The notes beneath the pieces are model-generated. The model made no database searches and was not told the origin of the DNA. It saw only the letters and a program-made list of their open reading frames with translations. Position numbers and translations under genes: made by a program. From positions 13,321 to 77,320 of IMG/VR virus record IMGVR_UViG_3300035204_001594: 64,000 bases of DNA; one strand, given 5' to 3'. Each line of letters opens with the position of its first letter. Positions within the stretch are counted from its first letter, which is position 1. Positions 1 to 54,959 of this stretch are shown here, piece after piece. The stretch is from a virus.

Positions 1-1060
1 TGGCTGCATCATTGTACACCTGGGAAGCGCGTCCGAAACATAGATTTCCTGACTCCCCCACATGAGGGTGTATATACCCGTTGGCTGCAGATTCGTCCTC
101 TAGGTTTCCCAAGCGGTGTATGTTTATTGCAGTGTCACTGTATGTTCCTATACATTTAGTAAATTTGTTATAGTCCCAGGAAATCCATATATCTCTAAAG
201 GTGTGTGTAGTCTCTACCTCACCTTCCGTACCCCTATAGTGATTTAGGGTTATAGGTCTTAAGGCGTACCAAAAGGTTCGAGTTTTCGGGGAGTATAAGC
301 AGGCTCTACATAAAGGATTATAATAACCTTTTGTAGCGGCATACAGATCCCTAAACACACCGGTAGGTGCTTTAGCAATAGAGGCCTGTAATTGTTTGTA
401 GATTTCCGAGGTCTCAGAGCTGTTTTCGTAGAAGTTATCTGCTTGAAACCGACCATTCTCCAGAAATTTATCCACAGAATTACTGAGATTTGAAACAATA
501 TAATCCACATCTCTCCTAAATTGGCGACGGAAGACAGGGACGTAGAGCTCGTCTAGGCGTAGAGGGCAAGCTTTGCGGTTAGAGGTGTTTTGCCGAGTCC
601 AGTAGTCGTCTACAAGTTTATGGGCAACGTCATCGGGTGATCGATCTCCTAGTATCAGGTCCCTTACGAGGTCAGAACTAGGTCTATTCGGGTACGCTGC
701 AGCTATATACTGCCCAAGACTTTCTAGCATAACATATCGAGCTTTGCGGCCTATGTTTAGTAGTTCGTATATGTATTCCCTGTGGGCGTTAGCCCGCGAC
801 TCGCGTAGTCGTGAGGTTAGATTGGCTACCCCCTTCATGTGTAGGCGGCAAGCTAATCTATAAATAGATGTATCGGACATACCGCTTACCGACACCCAAC
901 TAGAAGGGCTATCGTCGTGAGAAGGCCTAATCTGATTGCTATACACTCCTCTAATCATGTCTTCACGAGCCGCTATGTCTTTCTCTACGCGTGCTTTTAA
1001 TATATCTGGTGCTAATGGGTTTTGTAAAAGATTTGTTACGATTTTATTGTGTTTGTTCAT
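1..1060 (-). CDS. E2 ubiquitin-conjugating-like protein (prokaryotic E2 family), C-terminus cut by window edge; absent from ORF track
   Basis: Hand translation from ATG at 1060 (AAGGA RBS upstream) is open for 353 codons to the edge. It ends ...NGYIHPHVGESGNLCFGRASQ; HPH-x7-C (38-70) matches the E2 HPN...C active-site motif. Directly downstream of a Ub-like gene. Confidence 0.8.
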   Translation of the reverse strand, partial: MNKHNKIVTNLLQNPLAPDILKARVEKDIAAREDMIRGVYSNQIRPSHDDSPSSWVSVSGMSDTSIYRLACRLHMKGVANLTSRLRESRANAHREYIYELLNIGRKARYVMLESLGQYIAAAYPNRPSSDLVRDLILGDRSPDDVAHKLVDDYWTRQNTSNRKACPLRLDELYVPVFRRQFRRDVDYIVSNLSNSVDKFLENGRFQADNFYENSSETSEIYKQLQASIAKAPTGVFRDLYAATKGYYNPLCRACLYSPKTRTFWYALRPITLNHYRGTEGEVETTHTFRDIWISWDYNKFTKCIGTYSDTAINIHRLGNLEDESAANGYIHPHVGESGNLCFGRASQVYNDAA

Positions 1061-1121: not shown

Positions 1122-1430
1122 TTAGCAACCACCTTGGATTTTAGTAGGGGTTACTTGTACACTATCACCTGGGTTTAAAGTTTGCCCAGCTTCAGCATTC
1201 ATGCCATTAATTTTAACTATAAAGTTTTTAGGCGCTGCGTTGATTTTAAGATTATCTTTAAAGAACGAGTCAATAGTAGTTCCTGAAGGAATCACGTAGT
1301 CTTGACTAGTGTGGTTATATACGTCTAAGCAAGAGACGTTTATAGTAGAAGATGTGTTGGTATCTGTGCCGCCAAATGTAGTGTTGCAGGTTTGTGTTTC
1401 GGTTGCGCCGAATGTTGATTCAGGGTTCAT
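1122..1430 (-). CDS. Ubiquitin-like/ThiS-MoaD beta-grasp protein ending GG-C
   Basis: IPSGTTIDSFF...FIVKING...LNPGDSVQVTPTKIQGGC is the ThiS/MoaD/Ubl pattern, with a diglycine one residue from the end. Confidence 0.8.
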   Translation of the reverse strand: MNPESTFGATETQTCNTTFGGTDTNTSSTINVSCLDVYNHTSQDYVIPSGTTIDSFFKDNLKINAAPKNFIVKINGMNAEAGQTLNPGDSVQVTPTKIQGGC

Positions 1431-1434
1431 AGTG

Positions 1435-2262
1435 TTAGCTTCCTTCGAGTAGCTTACGTTGTTTTATCAAATGGTTATCCAAGTACTTACCTTTGCGCTT
1501 GAATATCTTGCCGGTATAGGGACATATCCAGCCTTCACCATATGTGAAAGCTTTCCATTCCATAATGGGAACATACAGATCCGGAGTCTCTGTAGCCGCT
1601 TTAATAATATTAGTAAACATGTATTTGCTAAGTGTCTGGTAAGTTTTATCTGTGATAGGACATACCCATAACCCGTCAGCATTTCGACGAGGGGAAGGCT
1701 GAGTAAGATTTTCCGTAGTTTCAGTACCGATTGGGCGCGCCTCACCTTCAACCTCTGTTACAAGGTCTTCGGGTAAGCCAATAATACTATCAACCCATTG
1801 GGGAAAATCTTCGCTAGCACAATCCAGTACATGAATCTCTCTATCCGGGTAACTTTTATTTATAAATTTCTTGGCAGCGGTTTTAGCCCACTTCCGAGCA
1901 GCGGTTAGTGTTCTCGACGAGTGATCCGGAGCCTTACGCTCCTTAGGCTTTTCGAACAAGAAAATACAAAACGGTTTAGATGCTGTAGGAGGCTTAAACT
2001 TATGCTGAAACCCGCCAGCGGTTACCTTAGAGCTTATCTCTTGTTGGTAAACCCGCTCCTCCTTTTCTTGCCTTTTTTCTGCTCTTTTAATGTACGAGAA
2101 CGGCCTAACTACCCACGCATCTTTAGGCCATAAGGCCTTAGCGCATTTAGTGGCTGCTCTTTCTGTATCAAAAAGGCTCGGTTTACCCGAGCCTTCTTCT
2201 ACATAGGAATCTAAATTTTTTAACCAAATTACGTATTTAGACGATTTCGACATCCAATTCAT
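1435..2262 (-). CDS. Hypothetical basic protein with two degenerate Zn-finger-like repeats
   Basis: WVCPITDKTY..KY and WICPYTGKIF..KYLDNHL. Confidence 0.6.
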   Translation of the reverse strand: MNWMSKSSKYVIWLKNLDSYVEEGSGKPSLFDTERAATKCAKALWPKDAWVVRPFSYIKRAEKRQEKEERVYQQEISSKVTAGGFQHKFKPPTASKPFCIFLFEKPKERKAPDHSSRTLTAARKWAKTAAKKFINKSYPDREIHVLDCASEDFPQWVDSIIGLPEDLVTEVEGEARPIGTETTENLTQPSPRRNADGLWVCPITDKTYQTLSKYMFTNIIKAATETPDLYVPIMEWKAFTYGEGWICPYTGKIFKRKGKYLDNHLIKQRKLLEGS

Positions 2263-29263: not shown

Positions 29264-30379
29264 TTAAAATATGGAGATACTTTCTCCACCTTCTGCTCTC
29301 CACTTATTCAACCCAATATCATCAGCAGTTGAACCGAACCACTGATATTGTGTCGGTATCCCTGCACCTATGATTGTGGATGTTCCGTCTGGTGTGAAAT
29401 CGAAATTAGCGGCATCTGTGTAACTTGGGTCTGTTGCAGAGATGTAGTCGTACATCGAAAGGTGGTCTGTACCAGCCATTGGTACATATATCTCTCCACC
29501 GTTTCCATAGAATGCATTATTATAGTGTCGTGTTTCGCAACTGCTCCCGACTCTTAATCCTTTGTTTGTATTGTTTGTGTGTAAATTGTTGACCCATACA
29601 CTCTGACCAGAACCTGAAATATATACACCATCATCATTTGAGTCAAATACACAGTTACAAACAACCGCACCATTATTGCCCACATATAAACCATCGTCAC
29701 CATTGTTGTAAAACGCACACTCTGCAATTCTTGCGGCTGTACCACATCGCAATCCGTCCCCTGTGTTATTATCAAACAAACATTTGTAATACATCGCAAA
29801 TTGTGTGGATTGGGTTTCACAACCAGAGTCACCATTATTGTCAAAACGACAATTTACAAAGTTCCAATAGTTTGCTGTGTTATTTGTATACACTCCGTGG
29901 GATGTTGCTTGTGTAAATTGGCAATTCATCCAATGAATATTGTTACTACTTGCAACAGTTGCCTCTAAACAATGCTGTGCTGTATCATTTGCATCAAATT
30001 TAAGGTGGGAAAATGCACTACCATCGGCAGTTGCTACTGATATTTCTACCATTGGTGTTGTACCATTTAGTCCTGTACCTAAAATATTGACAATAGTTCC
30101 ATCCACAACACCAGAATCATTCGCACCGTTGATTACAACTTCTCTGCTATTCCAAGTAATTGTGAGTTTTGCTGTGAGATTGTAGTATGTCGCATCATCA
30201 GATGTTTTCATAATGCGGAGTTCGTCACCATCATTTAATATACTTGCACCCGCAATTTCATCAAATCCTTTTTGGATTGTTTGCCACGCCGCACCAGTGG
30301 ATGTCCCGGCATTTGCATCGTCCCCGTTTTCGCCGTCCACATAGTAGATATTTACACTTGCACCATCGTATGAGGCCAT
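29264..30379 (-). CDS. Right-handed beta-helix (pectin-lyase-fold) tail-associated protein
   Basis: YYVDGENGDDANAGTS..AWQTI start; repeated NCxFDNNxxG rungs. Confidence 0.8.
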   Translation of the reverse strand: MASYDGASVNIYYVDGENGDDANAGTSTGAAWQTIQKGFDEIAGASILNDGDELRIMKTSDDATYYNLTAKLTITWNSREVVINGANDSGVVDGTIVNILGTGLNGTTPMVEISVATADGSAFSHLKFDANDTAQHCLEATVASSNNIHWMNCQFTQATSHGVYTNNTANYWNFVNCRFDNNGDSGCETQSTQFAMYYKCLFDNNTGDGLRCGTAARIAECAFYNNGDDGLYVGNNGAVVCNCVFDSNDDGVYISGSGQSVWVNNLHTNNTNKGLRVGSSCETRHYNNAFYGNGGEIYVPMAGTDHLSMYDYISATDPSYTDAANFDFTPDGTSTIIGAGIPTQYQWFGSTADDIGLNKWRAEGGESISIF

Positions 30380-33300
30380 TAGACTGTCCTCCTAATTCTA
30401 ACCGAAAGAGTAGCATTAGTTACCGTAGGAGTAGATCCAGTTTGTACTCGAAACTCCAATATATCTCCTGCGCTAAATTGGTACGTATTCCACTCACTGG
30501 GCGTAATTGTTCCGCTAGTTGCTTTATTTGCTGAAGATAAGGCAGGGGAGTAAGTATGGTGATAGTGGGCAGATGCTGTTGTAGGAAAGTTGGCATAGGT
30601 ACACCAAAATATCTCAAAGTCAACATTGCCTGTATCTGTTGAAGTTAATGTCCACTCCACTATTTCGCAATCGTAAGGTAAAACTCTGTGCCCTTTGATA
30701 CCTGTAGTTAGATTTGATGTTCCATTATCAATTCTAATACCTATAACCTCTGTTGAGGTGCTGTCTAGCTGTGTGCCGTCTGGAAACTGTAAATAATTAC
30801 CTGTGCCAGATATTTCAGCCACACCGGCTACCTCTAGGTCCGAGTCAGGGGTCTCAGTCCTAATTCCTAGTCGCTCATTTATATGATCGAAACACACATA
30901 TGGAGAGGAAGACGGGGAGTCGCCTTCTGTGAAATCAGCGACTTCTATAAGAGCCCCGCTTTCTGCCGTTCCCGTAATCTTATCTCCATTACCGGAAGTT
31001 CCGGCATCGTCCATTACAAGTAGTAGGGATCCGTCTAAGTAATCTTCCGAGCTCATATCTATGTCTCCATTAGCCTGGGCTAAATTGATAGATACACCCA
31101 CCTGTTTAGCTATATCCACAGCTGTCTCGAGCCCCTGCACCCCTATAGTAGTGTTTGTACTGGTACTCGTACTGTCACTGTACGTTAAAGTATGGGTATT
31201 AGAAGACGCATCCTCCAATATGATAGTAGTTCCGTCCAAAGCCGTTCCTACATCATACCCTCCCGTGAAAGCAGAAGGCATTCCAGGGGAGCTCTCTACG
31301 TTACTAGCATCGTCAAAATCGGGAGAGCTGCTGATGGTAATAGATGTATTACCAGAGGTTCCCGTTGTCGCCTGCTCTAACTCAACTAATCCCGGGGTGC
31401 TATTCACGCTAATATCTAAACGCTTTGTAGCTGAAGAGCCTCCACTAAAGTCACTAACATTTGTTGACGTGAGAGAATCGAAGGTATTAAAGGTAAAGTT
31501 AGAATCCATAGGACTATCTAGAAGAGCATCCCAGTTAACGCTCTTCAGTATAGACGTACCACCTCCTGCACCTTCCCCTGTATGGGTTATGATTACCTTA
31601 GCTCCTAGGGCTACAGCCAGCAACGTTCCGTTGTGCCCATCTGAAGAGTTAATAATAGCGGCGAGGTTAGTTGCAGCATCCGAAGCCGATGAGCCTCTAT
31701 TAAATTCCTGACTGGCGGCCACAGCTCCAGAAGCTTTAATGGTATAGGTTTTCGAAGTGCCTGTAAAATCCATCAGTGTTAGAGTCTCGTCGGCGTAGTC
31801 GTCGTATTCCGCTGTACCAAACTGCAACCCTGTGGACGCCTCCCCTTCCCCGCCTGTTAGCGCTGTAAGGGCTGAGCCTCCTTCAACAACATTGTCCCAT
31901 TGTAGATTACCTATGGTCGTATTTCCTTTAACACCCCCTACAGACTGCTGTATGTGTACACTTCCTGCAGTAGTATTTGTTGTAATTTCAAGTTTTCTCT
32001 CCCCTCCTGTAAACGAGGCGGGAGGATTAACAGAACAAAGTGTATTCCAGTCCCAGCTACCAGCAGATACCTTTATATCAGTGTTGCCCCCTGTACCTGT
32101 ATCTCCTTGCGTCATAGTAGCTTGAGCGGAAGACACTGACACATCTATAGTTGTAGGCGCGCCTCCGCTAAAGGCGGATGGAGGAGCCTCTAAACACAGT
32201 GCATCCCAATTAGAGGAGTGGTTTATGGTAGTATTACCAGGGGTTCCTACAGCGTCCGCAACTAAAAGCACCTCTTGGCCGCTATAGCTTGCGGTAATTC
32301 CTCCGGCATTATCGTTAACTAGCTCTGCGAAATTTCTAGCGGTAGCTGACGCGGTTGTGCCTGCGTTAAACTCTTTATTGTTTGCATCTGCCGTACCGTC
32401 GTTCTTGATTTTATATGTTACGCTACTTGAACCTAGTAGTGTAATGGTCTCGTCCGGGTATTGTTTATGGGTACTACCATTAAAGGTAAATTCGGCTCTT
32501 GCCGATGTACCAAAACCTGCGTCACTCTCTACTATAGTTTTAAAATTAGTTGCTGTGTCGTCCGCAGTTGCTCCGGTGTTAAACTCCCTGTAGGATGCGT
32601 TAGCGCTACCGTCGTTTTTTATTGTAAATACTTTCGATAACCCGTATGCATCTATTATCTCAATATTAGCGCTATTAACATCCGCAAAAGTAGATCCAAA
32701 GGTAAAGGTGGCTGTAGCTTTTACCCCATGTCCATTATCCCCCTCAACTATTTCTTTAAACTGATCTGCTGTGGAAGACGCGTCATTCTCAGCATTAAAC
32801 TCTCTATTGTTTGCATTTGCTGTACTGTCGTTTTTAATCTTATACGTGTAGCTGGTCCCATCATGACTCTCCAGAGTTATGGTAGCGTTATTCTGGCTAT
32901 TGTATTCAGTATCCCCAAATATAAATGAGCCTGTGGCCGGAGTCAGGGTATATGAGTTTTCTGTACTTACCGAGGTGTTGCCCTCGGTTCCAGGGGTTGC
33001 CTGGGTTAGGGTTACCTGTCCGTCTGTGCCACTAGAAGTAGCTGTAAGTAAATTTCCGTGCCCTCTTTGCACAGCCGCTATAAAATTTGAGGCCGCCTCT
33101 ATATCAGAATCCCCTAAATTAAATTCGTAAACACCTCCACCCGTATAGGTAGTGAGAGGATCGGGGTGGGTACTATCTGTAAAATCATATCCTGTAGTTA
33201 TATCTGAGTTACCGGACTCCCCTCCGCCGGGCTGGGTTATTGTAACTTTGCCTGCAGCAACCTCAACGTTTAAGAATCCGTCGTGCCCGTTACTGTGATC

Positions 33301-34974
33301 TAGGGCTTCTTTAAGGTTACTGGCAGAATTGGAGGCCCCGGATCCTGAAAGGAAAATAGTATGCCCCCCGTGTATAAAGGAAGTTGGCATGGTTCCAGAT
33401 ACACTACTTGTGAAGTTGGAACCCGTGGTTATAGCGGTATTTCCTGAAACCCCAGATCCTTTCTGAGCTAGGGTTAATTCATTCGTGGATACAGATACCT
33501 CAATCTCGCCATCGTGTCCATTAACGTGCTCTACAGCAGTTTCAATATTGCTTGCAAATTGAGACGCAGAAAGTCCTGTGTTTATAGCAGTAGCGCCCCC
33601 TGTGAATGCCGAGGGAGGTGCGGTAGAGGTAGAGGTATTAAATAATTCTCCTATCTTTATATACGTATTACCCGCTGTGCCTCCTGAGGCTTGAGTAAGT
33701 GTAATTTGAGCTCCGGTCCGCGCGACAGATATACGACCGTTATGGCCGTTAGCGGATTCTATAGCTGTTTCTAGATTAGTAGCTGAGTCTGTTGCGTTAC
33801 TGCCCGCTAAGAATATTATATGCTCTGGATTACTGCTCGCAATACTTCCTGTAGTGCCTGCGGCTCTGGCTACATATGTACGAACTACTCCGTCAGTACT
33901 CTGTAAAAGTATAGTGCTATCGAGCTTTGCAGCTGCGTCAAAGGTAAAGGCATCGGCTGTAGCCGCGATAAGGGCCCCGCTCGATAGAAATGCATCAACA
34001 ATATAGTCCACCGATGTTCCATCGTCACTAATTAAATTCAGTGTACCTCCATCTGTACCCGTGCCACTTAGTGTAATTGTAGGAGAAGCTGCAGTAGATA
34101 TATCTCCGTTACTGCCTGATGATTTAGCTATGTAGGTAATAGCTCCCAGCTGTAAAGTACTATTAGACTTAGCCGAGGTTGTAAATGTAAAAGTTGTTGA
34201 GGCACTGTGGTTCCGAGGGTCTATATCCGCTGTTCCGTCGTTTTTTGCTCTATATACCTTAGTTATCTGATTGGTACCATCATGAGATGTAAGGGTAAGT
34301 GACGTATCGTTTTTACTATTATAATTAATGCTGTGAAACGTGAATGTGGTGGAGGCGGCTTCGGCTGAAGTGTTGTGCCCATTATTAGAGTCTATGGCTT
34401 GTTTTAGATTATTAGCCGCCCATATAGCTTTTTCGTCTGCCGTACTTCCCGACCCAATATTAAACTGAACGTTGTTACTCCCGTCTAGATCTCCGTTAGT
34501 AACGGTACCATCTGTCTTCCCTATGTAGGTTTTAGATGTGGTATCAGAGGATACTAACGTGATGGTAGCGTCTGCCACCGCTGTGTTTATAAACTGGAAT
34601 GTAGCTGTACCAGGTACGGATTCGGCACGTTGAAACAACGTGGTAGCCGCCGCTGTATTAGATCCTTTGATCATCTGTACGTATCCGGAGAACTTTTTAC
34701 CGACCGGTATAGTAGAACTCACCGTTGAGGAAACGTAACTACGAGAGTCTCCCAACTCCCTCCACGTGGTATACTCGACGGCATTATAGTACTTTAAAAC
34801 ATGGTCAGTTTCGTCGTACCAAAGATCTCCAACCTTACTTATATCATCTGTTGGAGCCTGCGTCCCATAATGAATGCGGACATACGGAGCCGCAGCGGTT
34901 TTATCCGGGCTAATCGTCGTATACTGAGGAGCGTTTAATAGCTGTTGTAGGTGTCTGGTCCAATTTTTGGACAT
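30379..34974 (-). CDS. Large tail fibre/appendage protein with about 10 nested copies of one domain
   Basis: N-term APTDDISKVGDLWYD; repeats ATFTF..ITL..TY / FNxG..AxN..GH / VTLTQ..GNT..FTGG; C-term LGIRTETP..LEVAG, LQFPDGT. Confidence 0.8.
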   Translation of the reverse strand: MSKNWTRHLQQLLNAPQYTTISPDKTAAAPYVRIHYGTQAPTDDISKVGDLWYDETDHVLKYYNAVEYTTWRELGDSRSYVSSTVSSTIPVGKKFSGYVQMIKGSNTAAATTLFQRAESVPGTATFQFINTAVADATITLVSSDTTSKTYIGKTDGTVTNGDLDGSNNVQFNIGSGSTADEKAIWAANNLKQAIDSNNGHNTSAEAASTTFTFHSINYNSKNDTSLTLTSHDGTNQITKVYRAKNDGTADIDPRNHSASTTFTFTTSAKSNSTLQLGAITYIAKSSGSNGDISTAASPTITLSGTGTDGGTLNLISDDGTSVDYIVDAFLSSGALIAATADAFTFDAAAKLDSTILLQSTDGVVRTYVARAAGTTGSIASSNPEHIIFLAGSNATDSATNLETAIESANGHNGRISVARTGAQITLTQASGGTAGNTYIKIGELFNTSTSTAPPSAFTGGATAINTGLSASQFASNIETAVEHVNGHDGEIEVSVSTNELTLAQKGSGVSGNTAITTGSNFTSSVSGTMPTSFIHGGHTIFLSGSGASNSASNLKEALDHSNGHDGFLNVEVAAGKVTITQPGGGESGNSDITTGYDFTDSTHPDPLTTYTGGGVYEFNLGDSDIEAASNFIAAVQRGHGNLLTATSSGTDGQVTLTQATPGTEGNTSVSTENSYTLTPATGSFIFGDTEYNSQNNATITLESHDGTSYTYKIKNDSTANANNREFNAENDASSTADQFKEIVEGDNGHGVKATATFTFGSTFADVNSANIEIIDAYGLSKVFTIKNDGSANASYREFNTGATADDTATNFKTIVESDAGFGTSARAEFTFNGSTHKQYPDETITLLGSSSVTYKIKNDGTADANNKEFNAGTTASATARNFAELVNDNAGGITASYSGQEVLLVADAVGTPGNTTINHSSNWDALCLEAPPSAFSGGAPTTIDVSVSSAQATMTQGDTGTGGNTDIKVSAGSWDWNTLCSVNPPASFTGGERKLEITTNTTAGSVHIQQSVGGVKGNTTIGNLQWDNVVEGGSALTALTGGEGEASTGLQFGTAEYDDYADETLTLMDFTGTSKTYTIKASGAVAASQEFNRGSSASDAATNLAAIINSSDGHNGTLLAVALGAKVIITHTGEGAGGGTSILKSVNWDALLDSPMDSNFTFNTFDSLTSTNVSDFSGGSSATKRLDISVNSTPGLVELEQATTGTSGNTSITISSSPDFDDASNVESSPGMPSAFTGGYDVGTALDGTTIILEDASSNTHTLTYSDSTSTSTNTTIGVQGLETAVDIAKQVGVSINLAQANGDIDMSSEDYLDGSLLLVMDDAGTSGNGDKITGTAESGALIEVADFTEGDSPSSSPYVCFDHINERLGIRTETPDSDLEVAGVAEISGTGNYLQFPDGTQLDSTSTEVIGIRIDNGTSNLTTGIKGHRVLPYDCEIVEWTLTSTDTGNVDFEIFWCTYANFPTTASAHYHHTYSPALSSANKATSGTITPSEWNTYQFSAGDILEFRVQTGSTPTVTNATLSVRIRRTV

Positions 34975-42545: not shown

Positions 42546-44822
42546 TTAGCAGCCTCCTAAAGATTCAAGATCAGAGTAAATAGTACCGGTATATGTATCG
42601 CCTTCGTAAGTAAAACTCACTGTACCTGAATCTAGTCGAGGTGCGGGTTTAGGATTTTCTGAGGAGTTGTCCTCAGCAACAGAAGTTATTTCGAAGTGGT
42701 CTGACACTAATTCAGCCTTAATACCTCGTGTAGAGTCCGTGTAATACAAGGTAAACGGGTACATGTTAGTACCTATATTTAAGGGATCTGCGTAGGGGGT
42801 TACCTCTAATCTGTAATTAGCGGGACCTGTATATACCCCATACTCTTTCTCACAATAATACCCTGCGGGATCTGCTATAGTAGAGCTTCCTCCTCCGGCA
42901 TATACAAGGTCTACAACTGGGGTGTGGAGCGCAGATGCTACACTTCCGAATACAGATTTATTGGCGACCGTTAGGTCAATTACATAGTTTGTCTCGTCTA
43001 CGTATACTATATCGCCGCTGCGGCATGCATCGGTCCTCATCCCACCCTTTATACCTAATTTAACATTATTCTCTATAACTCTCAGAGCTCCTGTCTGGGC
43101 GCTGACGTAAATAACCAAATTTGACTCTAAGTCTGCGGGGCTCTGAGCATATATATACTCTCCTTTTAAACTACCCGCAAAGGTTAAAAATGTACGGGAG
43201 ACCCCATCAAGATCTCGGTTATACTCATGGGCAACCATTGTATCTGTACCCAAACAGATATGTACATGCTTAGAGGATCTGTCAATTTCTTCATATAGCG
43301 ACCTAACTGTTTGGGCGGTACCTACCCCATCTGTGCAATCTTCTTCACAATCATCATCGTAGTCGGACCCCTCATTACAGCAACTCTCGGTTCCTATATT
43401 ACCACTGTCATCTACCTCGGGGAAGGGGGAAGGACATACCTTACTTATAGAAATATCCTCCGACGCTACCAATATACCTACATCTTGATCTGTGGTTGCC
43501 GATATATCTATCCCTACATATGTATCTATACTGTCTGCTATTTTGTCTGCTATGGCTTGAGCAGAGGTTAATCCGCTTAGACCTATCGTGGTGCCGGTAT
43601 CTGTAGAAGAGGTGTCATAAGTAAATGTGGTCTCTACGTCTCCGCTGTCGGTTATAGTAAATGATGTACCATTTAGATTAGCTGAGTCTACGGTTGACTT
43701 TACCACAAAACTAGCTGTAGCGTATAGTTTCAAGGCCCCTCCTACAAAGCTACTATCGTACTCTATATCCGTTACAGATTCGTAGGTATTGGTAATAGCT
43801 GTATTTCCGACTAAGCCCGTGGTATTCTGGGTTAAATTAATAACACTATTGCCCACTGTGTCTGCAAGATGACCCCATGCGAATACGTATGGATTAAGCT
43901 CTTCGGGAAATATTAAGAATAGTGCGTTATCGTACACGCTTTCGGTAGGGGGGACCGGCTTAACTCCATTAATGGATAGTATGGGCTCACCTCTATAACA
44001 GGATGCGGCGTCAGGTCTGCCCCCGCAAGGACCTATGTATTTTTCTAAGTTAGCTTTAAGCAAATCTCCAGAGAATCCTACAGATAAAGTATCTCTACTT
44101 ATCGTCTCCTCTACTCCGTCACCTTTTACCAGTAAGTTAGTTCCACTGTTCTGGGTAATGGCGATTCCGTTTTCTCCGTCTATAGTTACCGCCCCCTGTA
44201 CAGCACTCTGCTCCCCTGCCTTTTTTATGGTTTTAACCCGTGAAAAATTAAGGAAGTGTATGCTTCGTCTCGATACTGAAGACTGAGAAACACTACTAAA
44301 TGTCCAGGTACCTCCGATGTGTTGTCTAAGTTCTTTGCCAAACACTACCCAACCCCCTACCCCGTCTGTAAGAGGCTCTACCCGTATCGGTAGCCCTTTT
44401 ACCGCATCCTTTAAAGATGCGGTTACTACAGCTAAGGGAATTATTGGGGAGGACGTACCAGTCCCGGCAAAAGTGGGAGATGTATTACTTAGAAAGTCTT
44501 CGTCTTGGTCTGAGTTAAAGTAAGGGCTATTGTTTGGGTCCTCGTATTCATTGTTGCCGTAAGTCTCTTGGGCAAGAGCCGTGGGTTTAAACTGGACCTC
44601 ATCTGTAACCACAAGGGTCAGATTAATTAACTCGTCGCTAACAACCACAGAAGCTACAAAAACAGACTGACCTAAAGAAGGGTCTAGGGTAAGGCGGGCA
44701 TCTGCCAAAATAGAATTAGGTAGTGTGGTGCCCTGGTCTGATAAACCGGTTGCAGACTCGTCTAAAGGAAAGCTTCGCTCTTCTGCCAAGTCTAAAAATT
44801 CTCTATTAATTAATTCTGGCAT
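42546..44822 (-). CDS. Baseplate/tail protein, NxxRxYP paralogue family, with an inserted permuted fibre domain
   Basis: EFLDLAEERSFPLDESAT, ILSINGVKP. Confidence 0.65.
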   Translation of the reverse strand: MPELINREFLDLAEERSFPLDESATGLSDQGTTLPNSILADARLTLDPSLGQSVFVASVVVSDELINLTLVVTDEVQFKPTALAQETYGNNEYEDPNNSPYFNSDQDEDFLSNTSPTFAGTGTSSPIIPLAVVTASLKDAVKGLPIRVEPLTDGVGGWVVFGKELRQHIGGTWTFSSVSQSSVSRRSIHFLNFSRVKTIKKAGEQSAVQGAVTIDGENGIAITQNSGTNLLVKGDGVEETISRDTLSVGFSGDLLKANLEKYIGPCGGRPDAASCYRGEPILSINGVKPVPPTESVYDNALFLIFPEELNPYVFAWGHLADTVGNSVINLTQNTTGLVGNTAITNTYESVTDIEYDSSFVGGALKLYATASFVVKSTVDSANLNGTSFTITDSGDVETTFTYDTSSTDTGTTIGLSGLTSAQAIADKIADSIDTYVGIDISATTDQDVGILVASEDISISKVCPSPFPEVDDSGNIGTESCCNEGSDYDDDCEEDCTDGVGTAQTVRSLYEEIDRSSKHVHICLGTDTMVAHEYNRDLDGVSRTFLTFAGSLKGEYIYAQSPADLESNLVIYVSAQTGALRVIENNVKLGIKGGMRTDACRSGDIVYVDETNYVIDLTVANKSVFGSVASALHTPVVDLVYAGGGSSTIADPAGYYCEKEYGVYTGPANYRLEVTPYADPLNIGTNMYPFTLYYTDSTRGIKAELVSDHFEITSVAEDNSSENPKPAPRLDSGTVSFTYEGDTYTGTIYSDLESLGGC

Positions 44823-51122: not shown

Positions 51123-52034
51123 TTATGCGCCTCCTGTGAAACTAGTTACAGTTAGGTTGGCGTCAGAATCATCGTCTGTAATTGTTGTATCTCCTATAGA
51201 ATTACAGTAGTTTTGAGTAAGTTCAACCTTGCCTGCGACCGTTGCGCTGTCCACTGCTGTTACTTCGAACCCTGAGGTGCCGTTGATCGCAGACGTCAAT
51301 CGAGCAGACGTGCCCGTTCCGGTAACACCGCTGGTTCCTACGCATATGTTGGTGGTGCTACCAGATCCGGTAGCTTCGTTGATCGTACTTCCGTCCGCTG
51401 TCGTAACAGTGGAGTTAAACTCAAAAACTTTAGTTACCGGGGTGGCTGCATTATCGATTATTGTCACAGTATTCCCGGATGTTGGAACAGCCGTAAACGT
51501 TACATCTCCGGTGGCGAAAGCAGTGCAAGCGCCGTCGTTTACTAGATTTAGAATCACTTGAACACTAGCGCCTTTGGATGTAGATACCGTTATATGATCG
51601 GCAGTGTCAAAATAAGAACGGGCTATGATAATATCATTTGCAACCGTGTTTACCGAAGTATCAGATACTACAACTGCGGCTCCGTAAATATCTTTTGAGG
51701 ATATGGTGGTCCCTTTTTCTCCTGTGGAGCCTCCGTCAGAGGTAAACCCTGTAAATGTAATTTTATTGTTGGTATAGTCTAAAGTGCTTAAACCTTGGTA
51801 GTGTCCGGACGCAACCACACGGGAAAACTTGGCAACGTCTACTCTAAGAAAGTCGGCGCCTGTAAGTCCTGTATAGTAGGCGTTGTGGTCGCCAGTACCC
51901 TGTACTGTAGCCTGCGTCGGGGCGCTGGGGGACGCGGCATATTCAATGTACATCTTAACCGCTACCGTCTCTTTCTGTTGTAGAAGAAGTGCGGTAGCTT
52001 CGTGAAAAGCTTCTGTTAGTACTGTAAAGGCCAT
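51123..52034 (-). CDS. Tail protein with one C-terminal copy of the fibre repeat domain
   Basis: ATGDVTF..VTIID..KVFEF..SARLTSAIN..KVELTQ..GDT..FTGG. Confidence 0.65.
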   Translation of the reverse strand: MAFTVLTEAFHEATALLLQQKETVAVKMYIEYAASPSAPTQATVQGTGDHNAYYTGLTGADFLRVDVAKFSRVVASGHYQGLSTLDYTNNKITFTGFTSDGGSTGEKGTTISSKDIYGAAVVVSDTSVNTVANDIIIARSYFDTADHITVSTSKGASVQVILNLVNDGACTAFATGDVTFTAVPTSGNTVTIIDNAATPVTKVFEFNSTVTTADGSTINEATGSGSTTNICVGTSGVTGTGTSARLTSAINGTSGFEVTAVDSATVAGKVELTQNYCNSIGDTTITDDDSDANLTVTSFTGGA

Positions 52035-52035
52035 A

Positions 52036-53274
52036 TTATCGGGTACTCATCTTAAGTTTACTGGTACTCTTATTGCTATCTGTAGAGGTAGTAGCTTCTA
52101 TTATAACAGTTTCTATAGCAAGAGGGTCATTATTTCGGTCGGGGTCAACATTACTGTACAGAGGGTTCGCTTGTACTCCAAAAATTATAATCATTTTTGT
52201 ATTTTTCGCCAGTACGGCTTCAAATACATCTATAAGTTTAGCCGCTTCGTTATCGGACAGCCCCGGGGCTAGCTCTATTAAAATAAGGTTTTCGGGTAGT
52301 AAGTATAGGGTAGATCCTTCTTCTGTGATAGCGCCGTATGCTTGTGTACTGTCTCCGTTATCAGGTAGATCCGTTACGCCAGGTATATCGTCTTCAAAGA
52401 CACCTTCTAGTTCATGCAGTACATCTATGTCTGTAGACACGGGATACCCGTAGTAGAGGGTGGTATCTACCGAAGCCGGGCTGGAGGACGTAATATACGT
52501 GTTGTTTTGCGTTATTACCACGTTCCCGTAGGGTGTCCCTGTCTTGGTCGCTATAACAACCTCTTTCTTAGTTCTAATAACGTCGCTTCCGAGGGCGCGA
52601 CACAGGGTGTACATGGTCCAATACCAGCTGGGGCCGAAGGTAAATAGTTTCCAAAGTCCCTTAAATACGTCTTGCCCTGATGTGGTAGGGGGTGCACTAA
52701 TTCCAAAGATATACCCAAACTGCCTACTTATATCCTGCCTGTCTCTGCGAACATTGTGCCCTATCAGCTTGAAATCAGGCTCATCGATTAATCCGTCTGC
52801 ATCCGCATCCTGTAACTGAGGGAACAGAGTAGAAGCATCCGTTACAAAGACCAGTAATCCGTTGTCTACGAAAAAGTCTATGCCTTCCGTATAGATGTAG
52901 GTTGGGTTATTTACGCCGTCCGCCACATAACCTACTGATTTTATGGATCTATCTCCTAGGTCGTATATGCCATATACTGAGGAAGCTTGATCTCCGTAGT
53001 CTACGTCTGTGTCTCCGTAATCTATACCAGAACCATAGGTTATGCTGGTACGAGCCGATTTGGTCAAGTGTAGGGTTTCTGTAACTGTTGTGTGTAAGGG
53101 CTCTGCTTCTGCGACTGAAGAGAATTCCGCATTTCTTACGGAATCCTTCGATGCTTGCATCTGAATGAGATCGACACCCTGAAGAACTTTATTTAATACA
53201 TCTTGTTCTTTAAATACATCTGTGTAAAAAGAGGGTATTAATGTAGTGTAGGTTGTGTAGGTGTCCGCTTTCAT
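52036..53274 (-). CDS. Baseplate wedge-like protein
   Basis: Follows baseplate J; YTEGIDFFV, FGYIFG. Confidence 0.55.
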   Translation of the reverse strand: MKADTYTTYTTLIPSFYTDVFKEQDVLNKVLQGVDLIQMQASKDSVRNAEFSSVAEAEPLHTTVTETLHLTKSARTSITYGSGIDYGDTDVDYGDQASSVYGIYDLGDRSIKSVGYVADGVNNPTYIYTEGIDFFVDNGLLVFVTDASTLFPQLQDADADGLIDEPDFKLIGHNVRRDRQDISRQFGYIFGISAPPTTSGQDVFKGLWKLFTFGPSWYWTMYTLCRALGSDVIRTKKEVVIATKTGTPYGNVVITQNNTYITSSSPASVDTTLYYGYPVSTDIDVLHELEGVFEDDIPGVTDLPDNGDSTQAYGAITEEGSTLYLLPENLILIELAPGLSDNEAAKLIDVFEAVLAKNTKMIIIFGVQANPLYSNVDPDRNNDPLAIETVIIEATTSTDSNKSTSKLKMSTR

Positions 53275-54959
53275 TAAACCTCAGCTACCACAATATCTAT
53301 TGCATAAGGATTAAGGAAAAATGCAACAGTTTTATCGCTAACTCCTCTATTAGGGTGATTAGGTGGTCTTAGGGTGTCAGAGGTTCTAAGCTGTAAAACA
53401 TCTGGGGCACCTGTGTCGTAGTTTTCATCCCCAAACGAGTAACCGGTATTATCTATGTCTGCAAACGCCGGCTTATCCGGGTAGTAAAGATTTCCGTGTA
53501 GTTTAATTGGAAAATCTATAAAAGCGTTTTCGGGTAAATAAGAGTGCACTGTATGTGCGATTAAACTAACAGGAATAGGCTTACCGAAAGGGACGCCGTT
53601 TACTGCGTTAGCAACGGCTAGCTGAATCTCTAAGGTATCTATATCTGGGGCAGCCTTAGGCTTAACAACCTTAATATTACAGCCGCAGAAAATAGGTACG
53701 GCTGCCTTAACTACCATGTCAGCGGCTACGGATCTATTTTCACCGTAGGTTACGTAATCCTGAAGAACGTCTATATAGGGAAGCTTTAGTAGTTTTACAG
53801 AATACTCAACCGACGAGGATATTAGTGCAGATGTGGCAGGGTCATTAACCCTAATCCTTACTTTTTGATAAGTGCTAAAACCTAGGTCTAGCCCGGTTAC
53901 TATACTTGGTACAGGTCCTGATGTAGGTAAGTCTACTGTACGATCGTATTCCACTATACATAAAGTTCCGCTGTTTGCGGATGTGGGTAGGTTGACCTGT
54001 GCAACGGCGTACAGGCCGTTACATTGCTCTCGGGTAAGGGTAAACTCGTAGTAATCTGTAGATGGTACTTCATCGGCTACCACAGAAATAGTTTCTACTA
54101 AAGGGTAGTGAGCGGTACGGGCATGAATATCTACGGTACCCCCTCTGTGGGTGGCTGCGCTGTCCGTCTGAATCACATCTCGGGTCATCTCGGGATCGCC
54201 AAAACCTGTCGCGCCTACGCTGATCACGTAAGGGAACTCGTCCTTTAGCTTAGCCTCAATGTGGGCCCGACCTCCTAGTATCTTACCTAAAACGCCTTGC
54301 TGTAGTTTTGTTACCAGTTCGGCATTGGTCTCCGCGTCTTTACCTCCTAAGAGTGTTTGAGCAGCTTCCACAGAAACTACCTTGGATACCTTAGGGGTCA
54401 TATTACTTGCTTTAGACCCTTCCTTCACGTTATACTTCGCCCCAACCTCAGCCGCCACTACAGGCACGTTAACAAAATACACTCCGCCAGTACCCTTAAC
54501 CAAGGCTATATCACCTGTTTGCAGCAGTGTCTCGGTTGAGCTAATAGCTCGTACAGATGCCGATACCTTGAACTCCAAGGAGTCTAGGGTCATCTTTGTA
54601 CCTTCTGGTATAAGAGTAGTGGAGTCTGAGCTGATAGTGACTCTGACGTACCCCGAAGCTTTCGCTCCGTTAGAGCGGGTTATGTTATAGTTAGAGAGTA
54701 CTCGATCTACTTGAGCATCGTCGGCTACTGTAGGATCTTTAGTTATCTCCAGCAAGCTGTTAGACTTTAGAGACGCTTCTAGCTCATCGCGGATACGCTG
54801 CTCTAGAGCTGCGTACAGATTAACTATAATATCTCGTTGGACAGACCCTGGTGTAAGGTCTAGGTCTGGAAACGACTCGTTAATATAATCGGCCAATAGT
54901 TGCTCAGTATTTAAGACTGAGGTTGATGATAGTTCGCTTAGTTTAGAATTAAATGCCAT
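53274..54959 (-). CDS. Baseplate J-like wedge protein
   Basis: DLTPGSVQRD, AAEVGAKYN, GGKDAETNAEL. Confidence 0.85.
   Translation of the reverse strand: MAFNSKLSELSSTSVLNTEQLLADYINESFPDLDLTPGSVQRDIIVNLYAALEQRIRDELEASLKSNSLLEITKDPTVADDAQVDRVLSNYNITRSNGAKASGYVRVTISSDSTTLIPEGTKMTLDSLEFKVSASVRAISSTETLLQTGDIALVKGTGGVYFVNVPVVAAEVGAKYNVKEGSKASNMTPKVSKVVSVEAAQTLLGGKDAETNAELVTKLQQGVLGKILGGRAHIEAKLKDEFPYVISVGATGFGDPEMTRDVIQTDSAATHRGGTVDIHARTAHYPLVETISVVADEVPSTDYYEFTLTREQCNGLYAVAQVNLPTSANSGTLCIVEYDRTVDLPTSGPVPSIVTGLDLGFSTYQKVRIRVNDPATSALISSSVEYSVKLLKLPYIDVLQDYVTYGENRSVAADMVVKAAVPIFCGCNIKVVKPKAAPDIDTLEIQLAVANAVNGVPFGKPIPVSLIAHTVHSYLPENAFIDFPIKLHGNLYYPDKPAFADIDNTGYSFGDENYDTGAPDVLQLRTSDTLRPPNHPNRGVSDKTVAFFLNPYAIDIVVAEV

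What the first reader, a model, noticed from the sequence alone, without database searches (positions are those of the whole stretch)
30925..34612. Russian-doll protein: one domain recursively inserted into itself
Seen: split the repeat into A (ATFTF..ITL..TY), B (FNxG..AxNL..GH) and C (VTLTQ..GNT..FTGG). The order is A1B1 A2 A3 A4 A5 B5C5 B4C4 B3C3 B2C2' A6B6 A7B7 A8B8C8 C7 C6 A9B9C9 C2'' C1, then a tenth copy. The parts balance like nested brackets, about five deep, using three different insertion loops. An intact ABC copy is in 51123-52034. Inference: a branched fibre in which each link is two antiparallel strands, grown by insertion of the domain into its own loops rather than by tandem duplication. 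Pairing of the halves is inferred from order.
Basis: partly seen in the sequence, partly recalled or inferred. Interest (0 to 1): 0.72.

Follow-up and report, generated by a model that had tools for sequence, protein, structure and literature searches.

The report
Self-nested domain tree, phage fibre protein
A 1531-residue tail-fibre-like protein of an uncultured marine phage builds its middle 1100 residues from nine copies of one small surface domain, each spliced into a loop of another copy (five levels deep, with one branch point); this way of growing a protein is rare but already described.

Summary
A profile built from the wider family finds every piece. A contiguous A-B-C folds as one compact 118-residue domain (AlphaFold2 pLDDT 93.8, pTM 0.89). 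That domain has the fold of the outer insertion domains of phage tail sheaths, T7-type nozzles, the flagellar cap FliD and flagellins.

The nested reading is well supported but not shown in 3D:
- The split pieces are complementary in profile coordinates at three fixed sites.
- The three closest homologues differ from this protein by exactly one whole A-B-C unit, sitting between B7 and C7.
- All 25 count-balanced multi-unit relatives obey the bracket order.
- A4 docked on B4C4 with only weak support (ipSAE 0.57, best control 0.00).
- The 1131-residue model was poor, so the pairings and the fibre geometry remain inferred.

The protein occupies the place of a collagen-like fibre in related phages.

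This is not a new principle. Cyanobacterial RNA polymerase Si3 has six-level self-insertion, and Geovibrio flagellin has a solved one-level self-nest of this same fold. This scan has already reported similar nests in at least eight other phage genomes. The use of three sites, giving a branched tree, is what is particular here.

The parts
34615..34974 (-). N-terminal region, aa 1-120, with a GDLWYDE..LKYY..W motif; presumed attachment part
   Evidence: Conserved in P0002-P0004. Only a marginal PHROG tail-fibre hit, E = 0.012.
34363..34614 (-). D1, first part (A1B1, aa 121-204): outermost host domain
   Evidence: Family profile positions 4-76.
34207..34362 (-). D2, A2 (aa 205-256): guest in the B|C loop of D1 and the branch-point domain
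   Evidence: A profile.
34096..34206 (-). D3, A3 (aa 257-293)
   Evidence: A profile.
33964..34095 (-). D4, A4 (aa 294-337)
   Evidence: A profile. Docks on B4C4 with weak support.
33595..33963 (-). D5 (aa 338-460): intact contiguous ABC, innermost of the first branch
   Evidence: Profile positions 2-122, E = 1e-32.
33367..33594 (-). D4, B4C4 (aa 461-536)
   Evidence: Profile positions 49-122. Complex test.
33136..33366 (-). D3, B3C3 (aa 537-613)
   Evidence: Profile positions 47-122.
32941..33135 (-). D2, B2 and C2' (aa 614-678); C is cut at profile position 31
32725..32940 (-). D6, A6B6 (aa 679-750): first guest inside C of D2
   Evidence: Profile positions 2-74.
32509..32724 (-). D7, A7B7 (aa 751-822)
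   Evidence: Profile positions 2-72. Contiguous with C7 in P0002-P0004.
32158..32508 (-). D8 (aa 823-939): intact ABC, absent from the three closest homologues
   Evidence: Single contiguous gap in P0002-P0004. Profile positions 1-122, E = 6e-36.
32002..32157 (-). D7, C7 (aa 940-991)
   Evidence: Profile positions 75-122.
31849..32001 (-). D6, C6 (aa 992-1042)
   Evidence: Profile positions 76-113.
31492..31848 (-). D9 (aa 1043-1161): intact ABC, second guest inside C of D2; this is the unit that was folded
   Evidence: AlphaFold2 pLDDT 93.8, pTM 0.89. Fold matches.
31435..31491 (-). D2, orphan C tail C2'' (aa 1162-1180)
   Evidence: C-profile positions 31-47, complementary to C2'.
31255..31434 (-). 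D1, C1 (aa 1181-1240): closes the outermost domain about 980 residues after B1
   Evidence: Profile positions 71-122.
30925..31254 (-). D10 (aa 1241-1350): divergent contiguous copy
   Evidence: Family profile E = 0.045. Motif pattern conserved in the homologues.
30382..30924 (-). C-terminal domain (aa 1351-1531), shared with collagen-like fibres of other phages
   Evidence: phrog_35197 E = 7e-13 and phrog_10330 E = 3e-10. 45% identity to the C-termini of the fibres in L001 and L002.
29264..30379 (-). Downstream beta-helix protein (371 aa), conserved partner gene of the fibre
   Evidence: Pfam Beta_helix E = 1e-17. 56.5% identical orthologue directly after the fibre gene in L001 and L002.
51123..52034 (-). 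303-aa protein with one intact ABC domain at its C-terminus
   Evidence: Family profile positions 4-122, E = 1.9e-5.

Best explanation
The gene encodes a tail-fibre-type virion protein. Its central 1120 residues (121-1240) are nine copies of one ~120-residue beta/alpha domain. The secondary structure is b1-b2-b3 | b4-helix | b5-b6-b7-tail, which corresponds to segments A | B | C.

Only three copies are contiguous (D5, D8, D9). Each of the other six is interrupted by one or more complete copies at one of three surface points:
- the A|B linker (D3 in D2, D4 in D3, D5 in D4);
- the B|C junction (D2 in D1, D7 in D6, D8 in D7);
- the loop before the C tail (D6 and D9 in D2).

The result is a rooted tree: D1 > D2 > {D3 > D4 > D5; D6 > D7 > D8; D9}. 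It is five levels deep, and every parent-child link consists of two chain crossings.

Because the two halves of D1 must pack together, the N-terminal part, D10 and the C-terminal domain stay next to each other, and the tree projects sideways. Inserting a domain whose two ends lie side by side adds surface without disturbing the host fold. That is how the same fold is used on sheaths, nozzles and flagella.

Shown: the segment order, the single-domain fold, the precise complementary cut points, and whole-unit differences between homologues.

Inferred: 3D reunion of the halves, inside-out folding, and a role as a multivalent surface or adhesion appendage on a probably trimeric fibre.
For: (1) Order and counts of A, B and C, found with family-wide profiles.

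(2) The contiguous unit D9 folds as one compact domain: pLDDT 93.8, pTM 0.89, with a 39-row alignment.

(3) Its best fold matches are domains that are themselves inserted in host proteins:
- sheath of cyanophage A-1(L), 8kee: Z 9.4, rmsd 2.6, 91 aligned;
- PhiTE sheath, 9cb9: Z 8.9;
- P-SCSP1u and T7 nozzles: Z 7.4-8.2;
- FliD D3: Z 6-7.8;
- P. aeruginosa FliC: Z 7.0;
- Geovibrio flagellin, 9au6: Z 5.0, with 97 residues aligned across chain range 176..589.
Foldseek returned the same set at E of 2e-3 or weaker.

(4) This protein differs from P0002-P0004 (42-49% identity) by one contiguous gap that equals exactly A8B8C8, placed between B7 and C7.

(5) P0037 and P0068 (55% identity) differ by two whole nest levels.

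(6) C2' covers profile positions 3-31 and the orphan tail covers 31-47.

(7) Among the 168 family proteins held, 68 have a single ABC. Of 58 multi-unit words, 25 are count-balanced, and all 25 obey the prefix rule. This includes 10 of 10 non-tandem words, such as AAABCBCBC, AABCBC (four times), ABABCC and ABABCABCCABC. The transitions the nesting grammar forbids are rare (AC 17, BB 8) compared with CC 72, AA 66, CB 56 and BA 33.

(8) Complex test of B4C4 with A4: weak support.
- ipSAE 0.57, best of 3 controls 0.00.
- The mark was reached by 58 of 80 solved complexes and 2 of 110 mismatched pairs. At 0.60 or under it was reached by only 7 of those 80, and by both mismatches that passed.
- The runs agree in at least 95% of contacts, and the partner's pLDDT is at least 67.
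- B4C4's own pLDDT was 73-74 with A4 and 37-42 with unrelated partners.

(9) Context. The gene lies in a baseplate/tail gene block (phrog_6 baseplate wedge at 53274-54959). In L001 and L002 the same C-terminal domain and the same downstream beta-helix gene follow a collagen-like (GAT)n fibre.
Against: - No confident 3D model of any nested part exists. The 1131-residue AlphaFold2 model had pLDDT 50.5 and pTM 0.27 with a 4-row alignment, and coordinates could not be inspected.
- The complex score is in the weak band.
- Tests that could have confirmed which A belongs to which BC gave no signal: congruence of similarity matrices and conservation levels.
- 33 of 58 multi-unit words are not count-balanced. 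This is plausibly due to missed divergent pieces and truncated metagenomic proteins, but I did not check them one by one.
- Function is not tested at all.
Confidence: 0.8

Rival explanations
1. The pieces do complement each other, but not in the strict nested intramolecular order. Either neighbouring copies exchange strands (an interdigitated, domain-swapped arrangement, as reported for parts of Si3), or A pieces of one chain of a trimer pair with B/C pieces of another chain.
For: [quoted passage not shown]
- The positional homologue in L001 is a collagen-like fibre, and hence trimeric.
- My pairing tests gave no signal.
- The long model was poor exactly over D3 and D4.
Against: - The innermost units are contiguous with canonical linkers.
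- Linkers at every return point are 0-3 residues long (FTGG directly followed by the host's next strand). This fits closure by a guest whose two ends lie together.
- The whole-unit gap leaves a contiguous A7B7C7 in the homologues.
Confidence: 0.12
2. A, B and C are independent, sequentially folding mini-modules: beads of A-type hairpins and BC-type units in runs. Under this reading, the balance of counts is coincidence or a by-product of unequal crossing-over.
For: - Runs of like pieces (AAAA, BCBCBCBC, CCC) look superficially like tandem arrays.
- 33 of 58 multi-unit family words were not count-balanced as detected.
Against: - A contiguous ABC is one compact domain with pTM 0.89.
- B4C4 alone is modelled poorly (pLDDT 37-42) and better with A4 (73-74).
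- 25 of 25 balanced words obey the bracket rule.
- Differences between homologues are whole balanced sets.
- The C2'/C2'' split is complementary at profile position 31.
- Pieces of 30-50 residues are too small to be stable alone (general knowledge).
Confidence: 0.05

Closest known systems
Si3 insertion of cyanobacterial RNA polymerase beta' (recursively inserted HABAS / sandwich-barrel hybrid motif domains)
   Same: One small domain is inserted into copies of itself several levels deep, with hosts that carry more than one guest. Six levels and 'bifurcating nodes' are reported (PMC13114784; PMC11515920).
   Different: The fold is different and unrelated. Si3 sits in a cellular enzyme and is integrated in the trigger loop, whereas this is a virion surface protein. 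Here three distinct insertion points within the domain are used.
Geovibrio thiophilus flagellin outer domains D4/D5 (PDB 9au6; PMC11532411)
   Same: Same fold as the ABC domain (Z 5.0, 97 residues aligned across chain range 176..589). [quoted passage not shown] This is a solved one-level self-nest.
   Different: One level rather than five. It occurs in a flagellin rather than a phage protein. There is no detectable sequence relationship.
Outer insertion domains of contractile tail sheaths (A-1(L) 8kee residues 92-184, PhiTE 9cb9 residues 84-176, Mu, Milano) and of T7-type nozzle proteins (gp12 residues ~146-248)
   Same: These are the best fold matches, Z 7.4-9.4. Each is a single peripheral domain inserted in a host protein. 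Family members P0014 (a sheath) and P0011 (a nozzle, PF25675) carry the ABC sequence domain itself.
   Different: The solved examples have one copy each. The nozzle homologue P0011 has about five nested copies, and the protein studied here has nine.
Flagellin and FliD hairpin architecture (D0-D1-D2-D3-D2-D1-D0)
   Same: Domains are nested by insertion, with the innermost domain contiguous (PMC8306008). FliD D3 and P. aeruginosa FliC D2 share the fold.
   Different: In flagellin and FliD most nested domains are unlike one another, and the depth is 3-4.

Membership tests
Recursive self-insertion of a domain (architecture class, as in Si3) | The repeated unit is an autonomous domain when contiguous | tested here: met
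   AlphaFold2 of D9: pLDDT 93.8, pTM 0.89. 68 of the 168 family proteins carry a single contiguous ABC.
Recursive self-insertion of a domain (architecture class, as in Si3) | Host copies are split into pieces that are complementary in profile coordinates and flank complete guest copies | tested here: met
   Profile ranges 2-74 / 76-113, 2-72 / 75-122 and 4-76 / 71-122. C2' covers 3-31 and the tail covers 31-47.
Recursive self-insertion of a domain (architecture class, as in Si3) | Homologues exist with and without the guest, differing by a whole unit | tested here: met
   A8B8C8 is absent as one contiguous gap in P0002-P0004. P0037 and P0068 differ by two levels.
Recursive self-insertion of a domain (architecture class, as in Si3) | The split halves reunite in three dimensions | tested here: inconclusive
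   B4C4 + A4: ipSAE 0.57 against best control 0.00, which is weak support. The long AlphaFold2 model was poor and no coordinates could be read.
Sheath / nozzle / FliD-D3 / flagellin outer-domain fold | Structural similarity over most of the domain | tested here: met
   Z 9.4, 8.9 and 8.2 for sheath and nozzle domains, with 86-98 of 118 residues aligned. The top 14 rows are all of this theme. The Z values are only just above the usual background of 7-8.
Pfam Flagellin_IN (PF07196) or any other Pfam, NCBIfam or PHROG family for the ABC domain | Profile match above threshold | tested here: not met
   No Pfam hit at E <= 0.1 except a spurious HTH_48. No NCBIfam hit. PHROG hits for D9 are only marginal, E = 0.0056. 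No PDB sequence hit at E <= 1.
Phage tail fibre | Gene lies in the tail/baseplate module and is positionally equivalent to a known fibre type | tested here: met
   Baseplate wedge phrog_6 at 53274-54959. In L001 and L002 a collagen-like fibre has the same C-terminal domain and the same downstream beta-helix gene.
Phage tail fibre | Trimeric, attached to the baseplate, binds the host | not testable with these tools
   No virion structure, and no host is known.

The most novel reading that the evidence does not exclude
The ABC domain is a general 'plug-in' building block of phage surfaces. It has three permissive loops, which let a single polypeptide grow as a branched tree of domains rather than a chain. 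Such a tree would keep the fibre's two ends in register while displaying several terminus-free tips, and it would fold from the inside out. If the branch at D2 is real in 3D, this would be a rare example of a dendritic single-chain protein built from one fold.
Probability: 0.5. Interest if true: 0.7.

Novelty: new variant of a known kind. Interest (0 to 1): 0.6.

Why it matters
Tandem duplication is the textbook route to repeat proteins. Growth by repeated self-insertion is documented in detail for essentially one system (RNA polymerase Si3), and at one level for a flagellin.

This protein and its family (394 cluster representatives) show that phages use the same route routinely on virion proteins, including fibres, nozzles and sheaths. 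Here three insertion points give a branched topology.

Practical consequences:
- Domain annotation: profile searches see only fragments, and Pfam has no model for this domain.
- Structure prediction of discontinuous domains.
- Folding studies: a domain whose halves are made about 1000 residues apart.
- Design of display scaffolds that add modules without moving the termini.

Tried and rejected
- tblastn of the protein against 50,697 phage records: no match. The terminase finds only relatives at about 30% identity, so the phage cannot be placed.
- PDB sequence search: nothing at E <= 1. Pfam and NCBIfam: nothing for the repeat.
- Pairing test by congruence of the A, B and C similarity matrices: not significant (A-B r = 0.29, p = 0.06; A-C r = -0.12).
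- Pairing test by per-segment conservation among four orthologues: uninformative, because only three units have A and B separated.
- AlphaFold2 of residues 115-1245 with a 4-row alignment: pLDDT 50.5, so unusable for contacts. Model coordinates are not given to scripts, so no contact map could be drawn.
- In a second look at that poor model, two low-Z rows (3.8 and 3.0) spanned model ranges 637..873 and 561..927. These coincide with A7..C7 and A6..C6, but they are too weak to use.
- DNA repeats inside the gene are only 65-75% identical over 80 nt, so there is no recent duplication.
- The search for related loci in viral contigs found only relatives of the C-terminal domain.
- ESM Atlas: only unnamed viral clusters. 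The crAss001 auxiliary capsid protein scored 0.89, which is a lead only. A structural match to 7qof_a at Z 6.1 agrees with it.


Full report
**The gene and the observation.**
The span corresponds to residues 121-1350.

I aligned the A, B and C pieces by eye and built profiles from them. I then rebuilt the profiles from 129 contiguous domains taken from the 168 proteins held, which include this protein's own three intact units. Both sets find the same pieces and no others:
- nine A pieces, plus a weak tenth;
- nine B pieces;
- nine C pieces, one of them truncated.

The order is AB A A A A BC BC BC BC' AB AB ABC C C ABC c'' C, then a divergent tenth copy.

The truncated C (aa 643-675) covers C-profile positions 3-31. 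A short orphan segment at aa 1164-1179 covers positions 31-47. The two are therefore complementary halves of one C.

A random shuffle of 9A+9B+9C satisfies the bracket (prefix) rule with probability 0.0018 (my calculation).

**What the repeated unit is.**
A profile of the three contiguous units found 394 cluster representatives at E <= 0.001 among 1.84 billion proteins. Many of them match the whole profile in one piece.

I folded unit D9 (aa 1044-1161) with a 39-row alignment. It gave pLDDT 93.8 and pTM 0.89: one compact domain with the pattern b1-b2-b3, b4-helix, b5-b6-b7, short helix, last strand. A, B and C are therefore thirds of one domain, not modules.

Pfam, NCBIfam, PHROGs and PDB sequences do not recognise the domain.

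By structure, its neighbours are a coherent set of peripheral domains that are themselves inserted in host proteins:
- tail sheaths of cyanophage A-1(L) (Z 9.4, rmsd 2.6, 91 aligned), PhiTE (Z 8.9), Mu and Milano;
- nozzle proteins of T7-type phages (Z 7.4-8.2);
- FliD D3 (Z 6-7.8);
- P. aeruginosa FliC (Z 7.0);
- the crAss001 auxiliary capsid protein (Z 6.1);
- Geovibrio flagellin (Z 5.0).

The Z values are only a little above the background quoted by the tool. The consistency of the list, and the fact that family members P0014 and P0011 are a sheath and a nozzle by Pfam, make the relationship credible.

BFVD matches show the domain in many uncharacterised phage proteins. Some of these are annotated as major tail, capsid, sheath or baseplate J proteins.

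**Is it nested?**
Four lines of evidence say yes.

First, the cut points are precise and recurrent:
- After strand b3 and half of the A-B linker (KNDGTA...), the next copy begins, and the host resumes exactly at its b4 (..EFN) directly after the guest's FTGG.
- After GH(N)G at the end of B.
- Between b7 and the NWDAL..SAFTGG tail.

Second, natural variation. The three closest homologues (P0002-P0004, 42-49% identity) align along the whole length with a single long gap that equals exactly A8B8C8. In those homologues A7B7C7 is a contiguous domain; in this protein it is split by D8. In an unrelated branch of the family, P0037 and P0068 (55% identity) differ by two whole nest levels.

Third, the grammar of the family:
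- 68 of the 168 proteins held have one ABC.
- Of 58 multi-unit proteins, 25 have equal counts of A, B and C, and all 25 obey the prefix rule. This includes 10 of 10 that are not plain tandem arrays (AAABCBCBC, AABCBC four times, ABABCC, ABABCABCCABC).
- Shuffles of these words pass the rule in 0.3-5% of trials.
- The two transitions that nesting forbids (A to C, B to B) are the rarest.
- The unbalanced words are mostly fragments or contain gaps of the right size for a missed piece. I did not resolve each one.

Fourth, a modelling test. B4C4 (aa 459-538) with A4 (aa 290-334) as separate chains gave ipSAE 0.57, against 0.00 for the best of three controls.
- The tool rates this as weak support.
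- The mark was reached by 58 of 80 solved complexes and 2 of 110 mismatched pairs. At 0.60 or under it was reached by only 7 of those 80, and by both mismatches that passed.
- The runs agree in at least 95% of contacts, and the partner's pLDDT is at least 67.
- The confidence in B4C4's own fold was 73-74 with A4 and 37-42 with unrelated partners.

**What is missing.**

Two attempts to confirm which A goes with which BC, from similarity and from conservation, gave no signal. The pairing rests on order, on the contiguity of the innermost units and on the very short return linkers. An interdigitated or inter-chain swapped arrangement is not excluded.

**The parse.**
- D1 = A1B1 (121-204) + C1 (1181-1240), hosting D2 at B|C.
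- D2 = A2 (205-256) + B2C2' (614-678) + C2'' (1162-1180). It hosts D3 at A|B, and D6 and D9 in tandem before its tail.
- D3 = A3 + B3C3, hosting D4.
- D4 = A4 + B4C4, hosting D5 (338-460, intact).
- D6 = A6B6 + C6, hosting D7.
- D7 = A7B7 + C7, hosting D8 (823-939, intact).
- D9 is intact (1043-1161).

The depth is five on two paths, and D2 is a branch point with three children. D10 (1241-1350) follows as a divergent contiguous copy.

**The protein as a whole.**
The gene sits at the end of a block of minus-strand structural genes. This block includes a baseplate wedge homologue. The gene is followed by a 371-aa beta-helix protein.

The record is an IMG/VR contig of 77,320 bp, estimated 43% complete, so the phage is large.

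In two other viral contigs (L001, L002), an orthologue of the beta-helix gene (56.5% identity) is preceded by a 1358-aa protein. That protein has long (GAT)n collagen-like repeats and a C-terminal 120 residues 45% identical to those of P0001, and it has no ABC units. The C-terminal domain plus the beta-helix gene is thus a conserved cassette, and the shaft is exchangeable: collagen-like in one phage, a nested domain tree in this one. This places P0001 as a fibre-type, probably trimeric, tail appendage.

**How it most likely works (inference).**
The guest domain's two ends lie together. This follows from its being an insert in sheaths, nozzles and FliD. Each insertion therefore adds a bead without separating the host's halves.

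The 980 residues between B1 and C1 therefore do not lengthen the path from the N-terminal part to the C-terminal domain. Instead they form a side tree with three terminus-free tips (D5, D8, D9).

Folding is expected to proceed from the contiguous innermost units outwards, with each closed guest bringing its host's pieces together.

By analogy with the outer domains of sheaths and flagella, the likely role is surface decoration or weak multivalent adhesion. Nothing here tests that.

**Comparison with what is known.**
- Recursive insertion of one domain into itself is described for the HABAS domains of cyanobacterial RNA polymerase Si3. Six levels and bifurcating hosts are reported (PMC13114784, PMC11515920).
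- For this very fold, the cryo-EM study of Geovibrio flagellin states that D5 is a duplication of D4 inserted in one of its loops (PMC11532411).
- Flagellin and FliD are nested hairpins in general (PMC8306008).
- My full-text searches found no paper describing deep self-nesting in phage virion proteins.
- This scan has already reported comparable cases in at least eight other phage genomes, up to ten levels deep.

I therefore class this as a new variant of a known kind. It uses the same principle as Si3 and the same fold as the flagellin case. Its particular features are depth five, use of three insertion points, and a branched topology in a fibre.

Noticed in passing
window 42546-44822 (-), aa ~320-460 of the 758-aa protein: A clear C segment is present (family C profile positions 7-47, E = 5.5e-11). 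By eye it is followed by A-like (ATASFVV..TSFTITD..TFTYD) and B-like (TIGLSGLTSAQAIADKIADSI) stretches. This could be the circularly permuted C-A-B copy noted by another reader. The A and B profiles did not reach significance (best E = 0.03).
   Followed up: partly
window 1125-1463 (-): A small ORF (113 aa, stop to stop) has a partial match to the ABC profile: positions 5-90, E = 3e-4.
   Followed up: no
G000:C1:7274-7636 (-), outside the window (about 6 kb before its start): Another intact ABC domain (profile positions 3-122, E = 3e-43) lies inside a 1526-aa open frame of the same phage record. The domain therefore sits in at least four genes of this phage.
   Followed up: no
L001:2281-6354 (+) and L002:2-673 (+): A collagen-like fibre protein with long (GAT)n / (GxD)n runs carries the same C-terminal domain as P0001. 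It is followed by an orthologue of the beta-helix gene. This is an example of shaft swapping between fibres.
   Followed up: partly
P0011 (1828 aa, public metagenome protein): This is a T7-type nozzle protein (PF25675, E = 7e-62, profile positions 301-789). Its N-terminal half carries about five nested ABC units, at the place where T7 gp12 has a single domain of this fold.
   Followed up: partly
P0013, P0018-P0020 (852-857 aa): These proteins have a single ABC in which the C tail lies about 75 residues after the rest of C. This suggests that a non-ABC insert occupies the same third insertion point used in D2.
   Followed up: no
window 32002-32508 (-), aa 927 and 980: The only two Cys residues in the nested region sit at equivalent positions in the tails of C8 and C7 (NWDALC / WNTLC), that is, in a guest and in its host. 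Homologues have Cys in the tails of C9 and C2''. A disulfide staple at guest-host junctions is possible.
   Followed up: no
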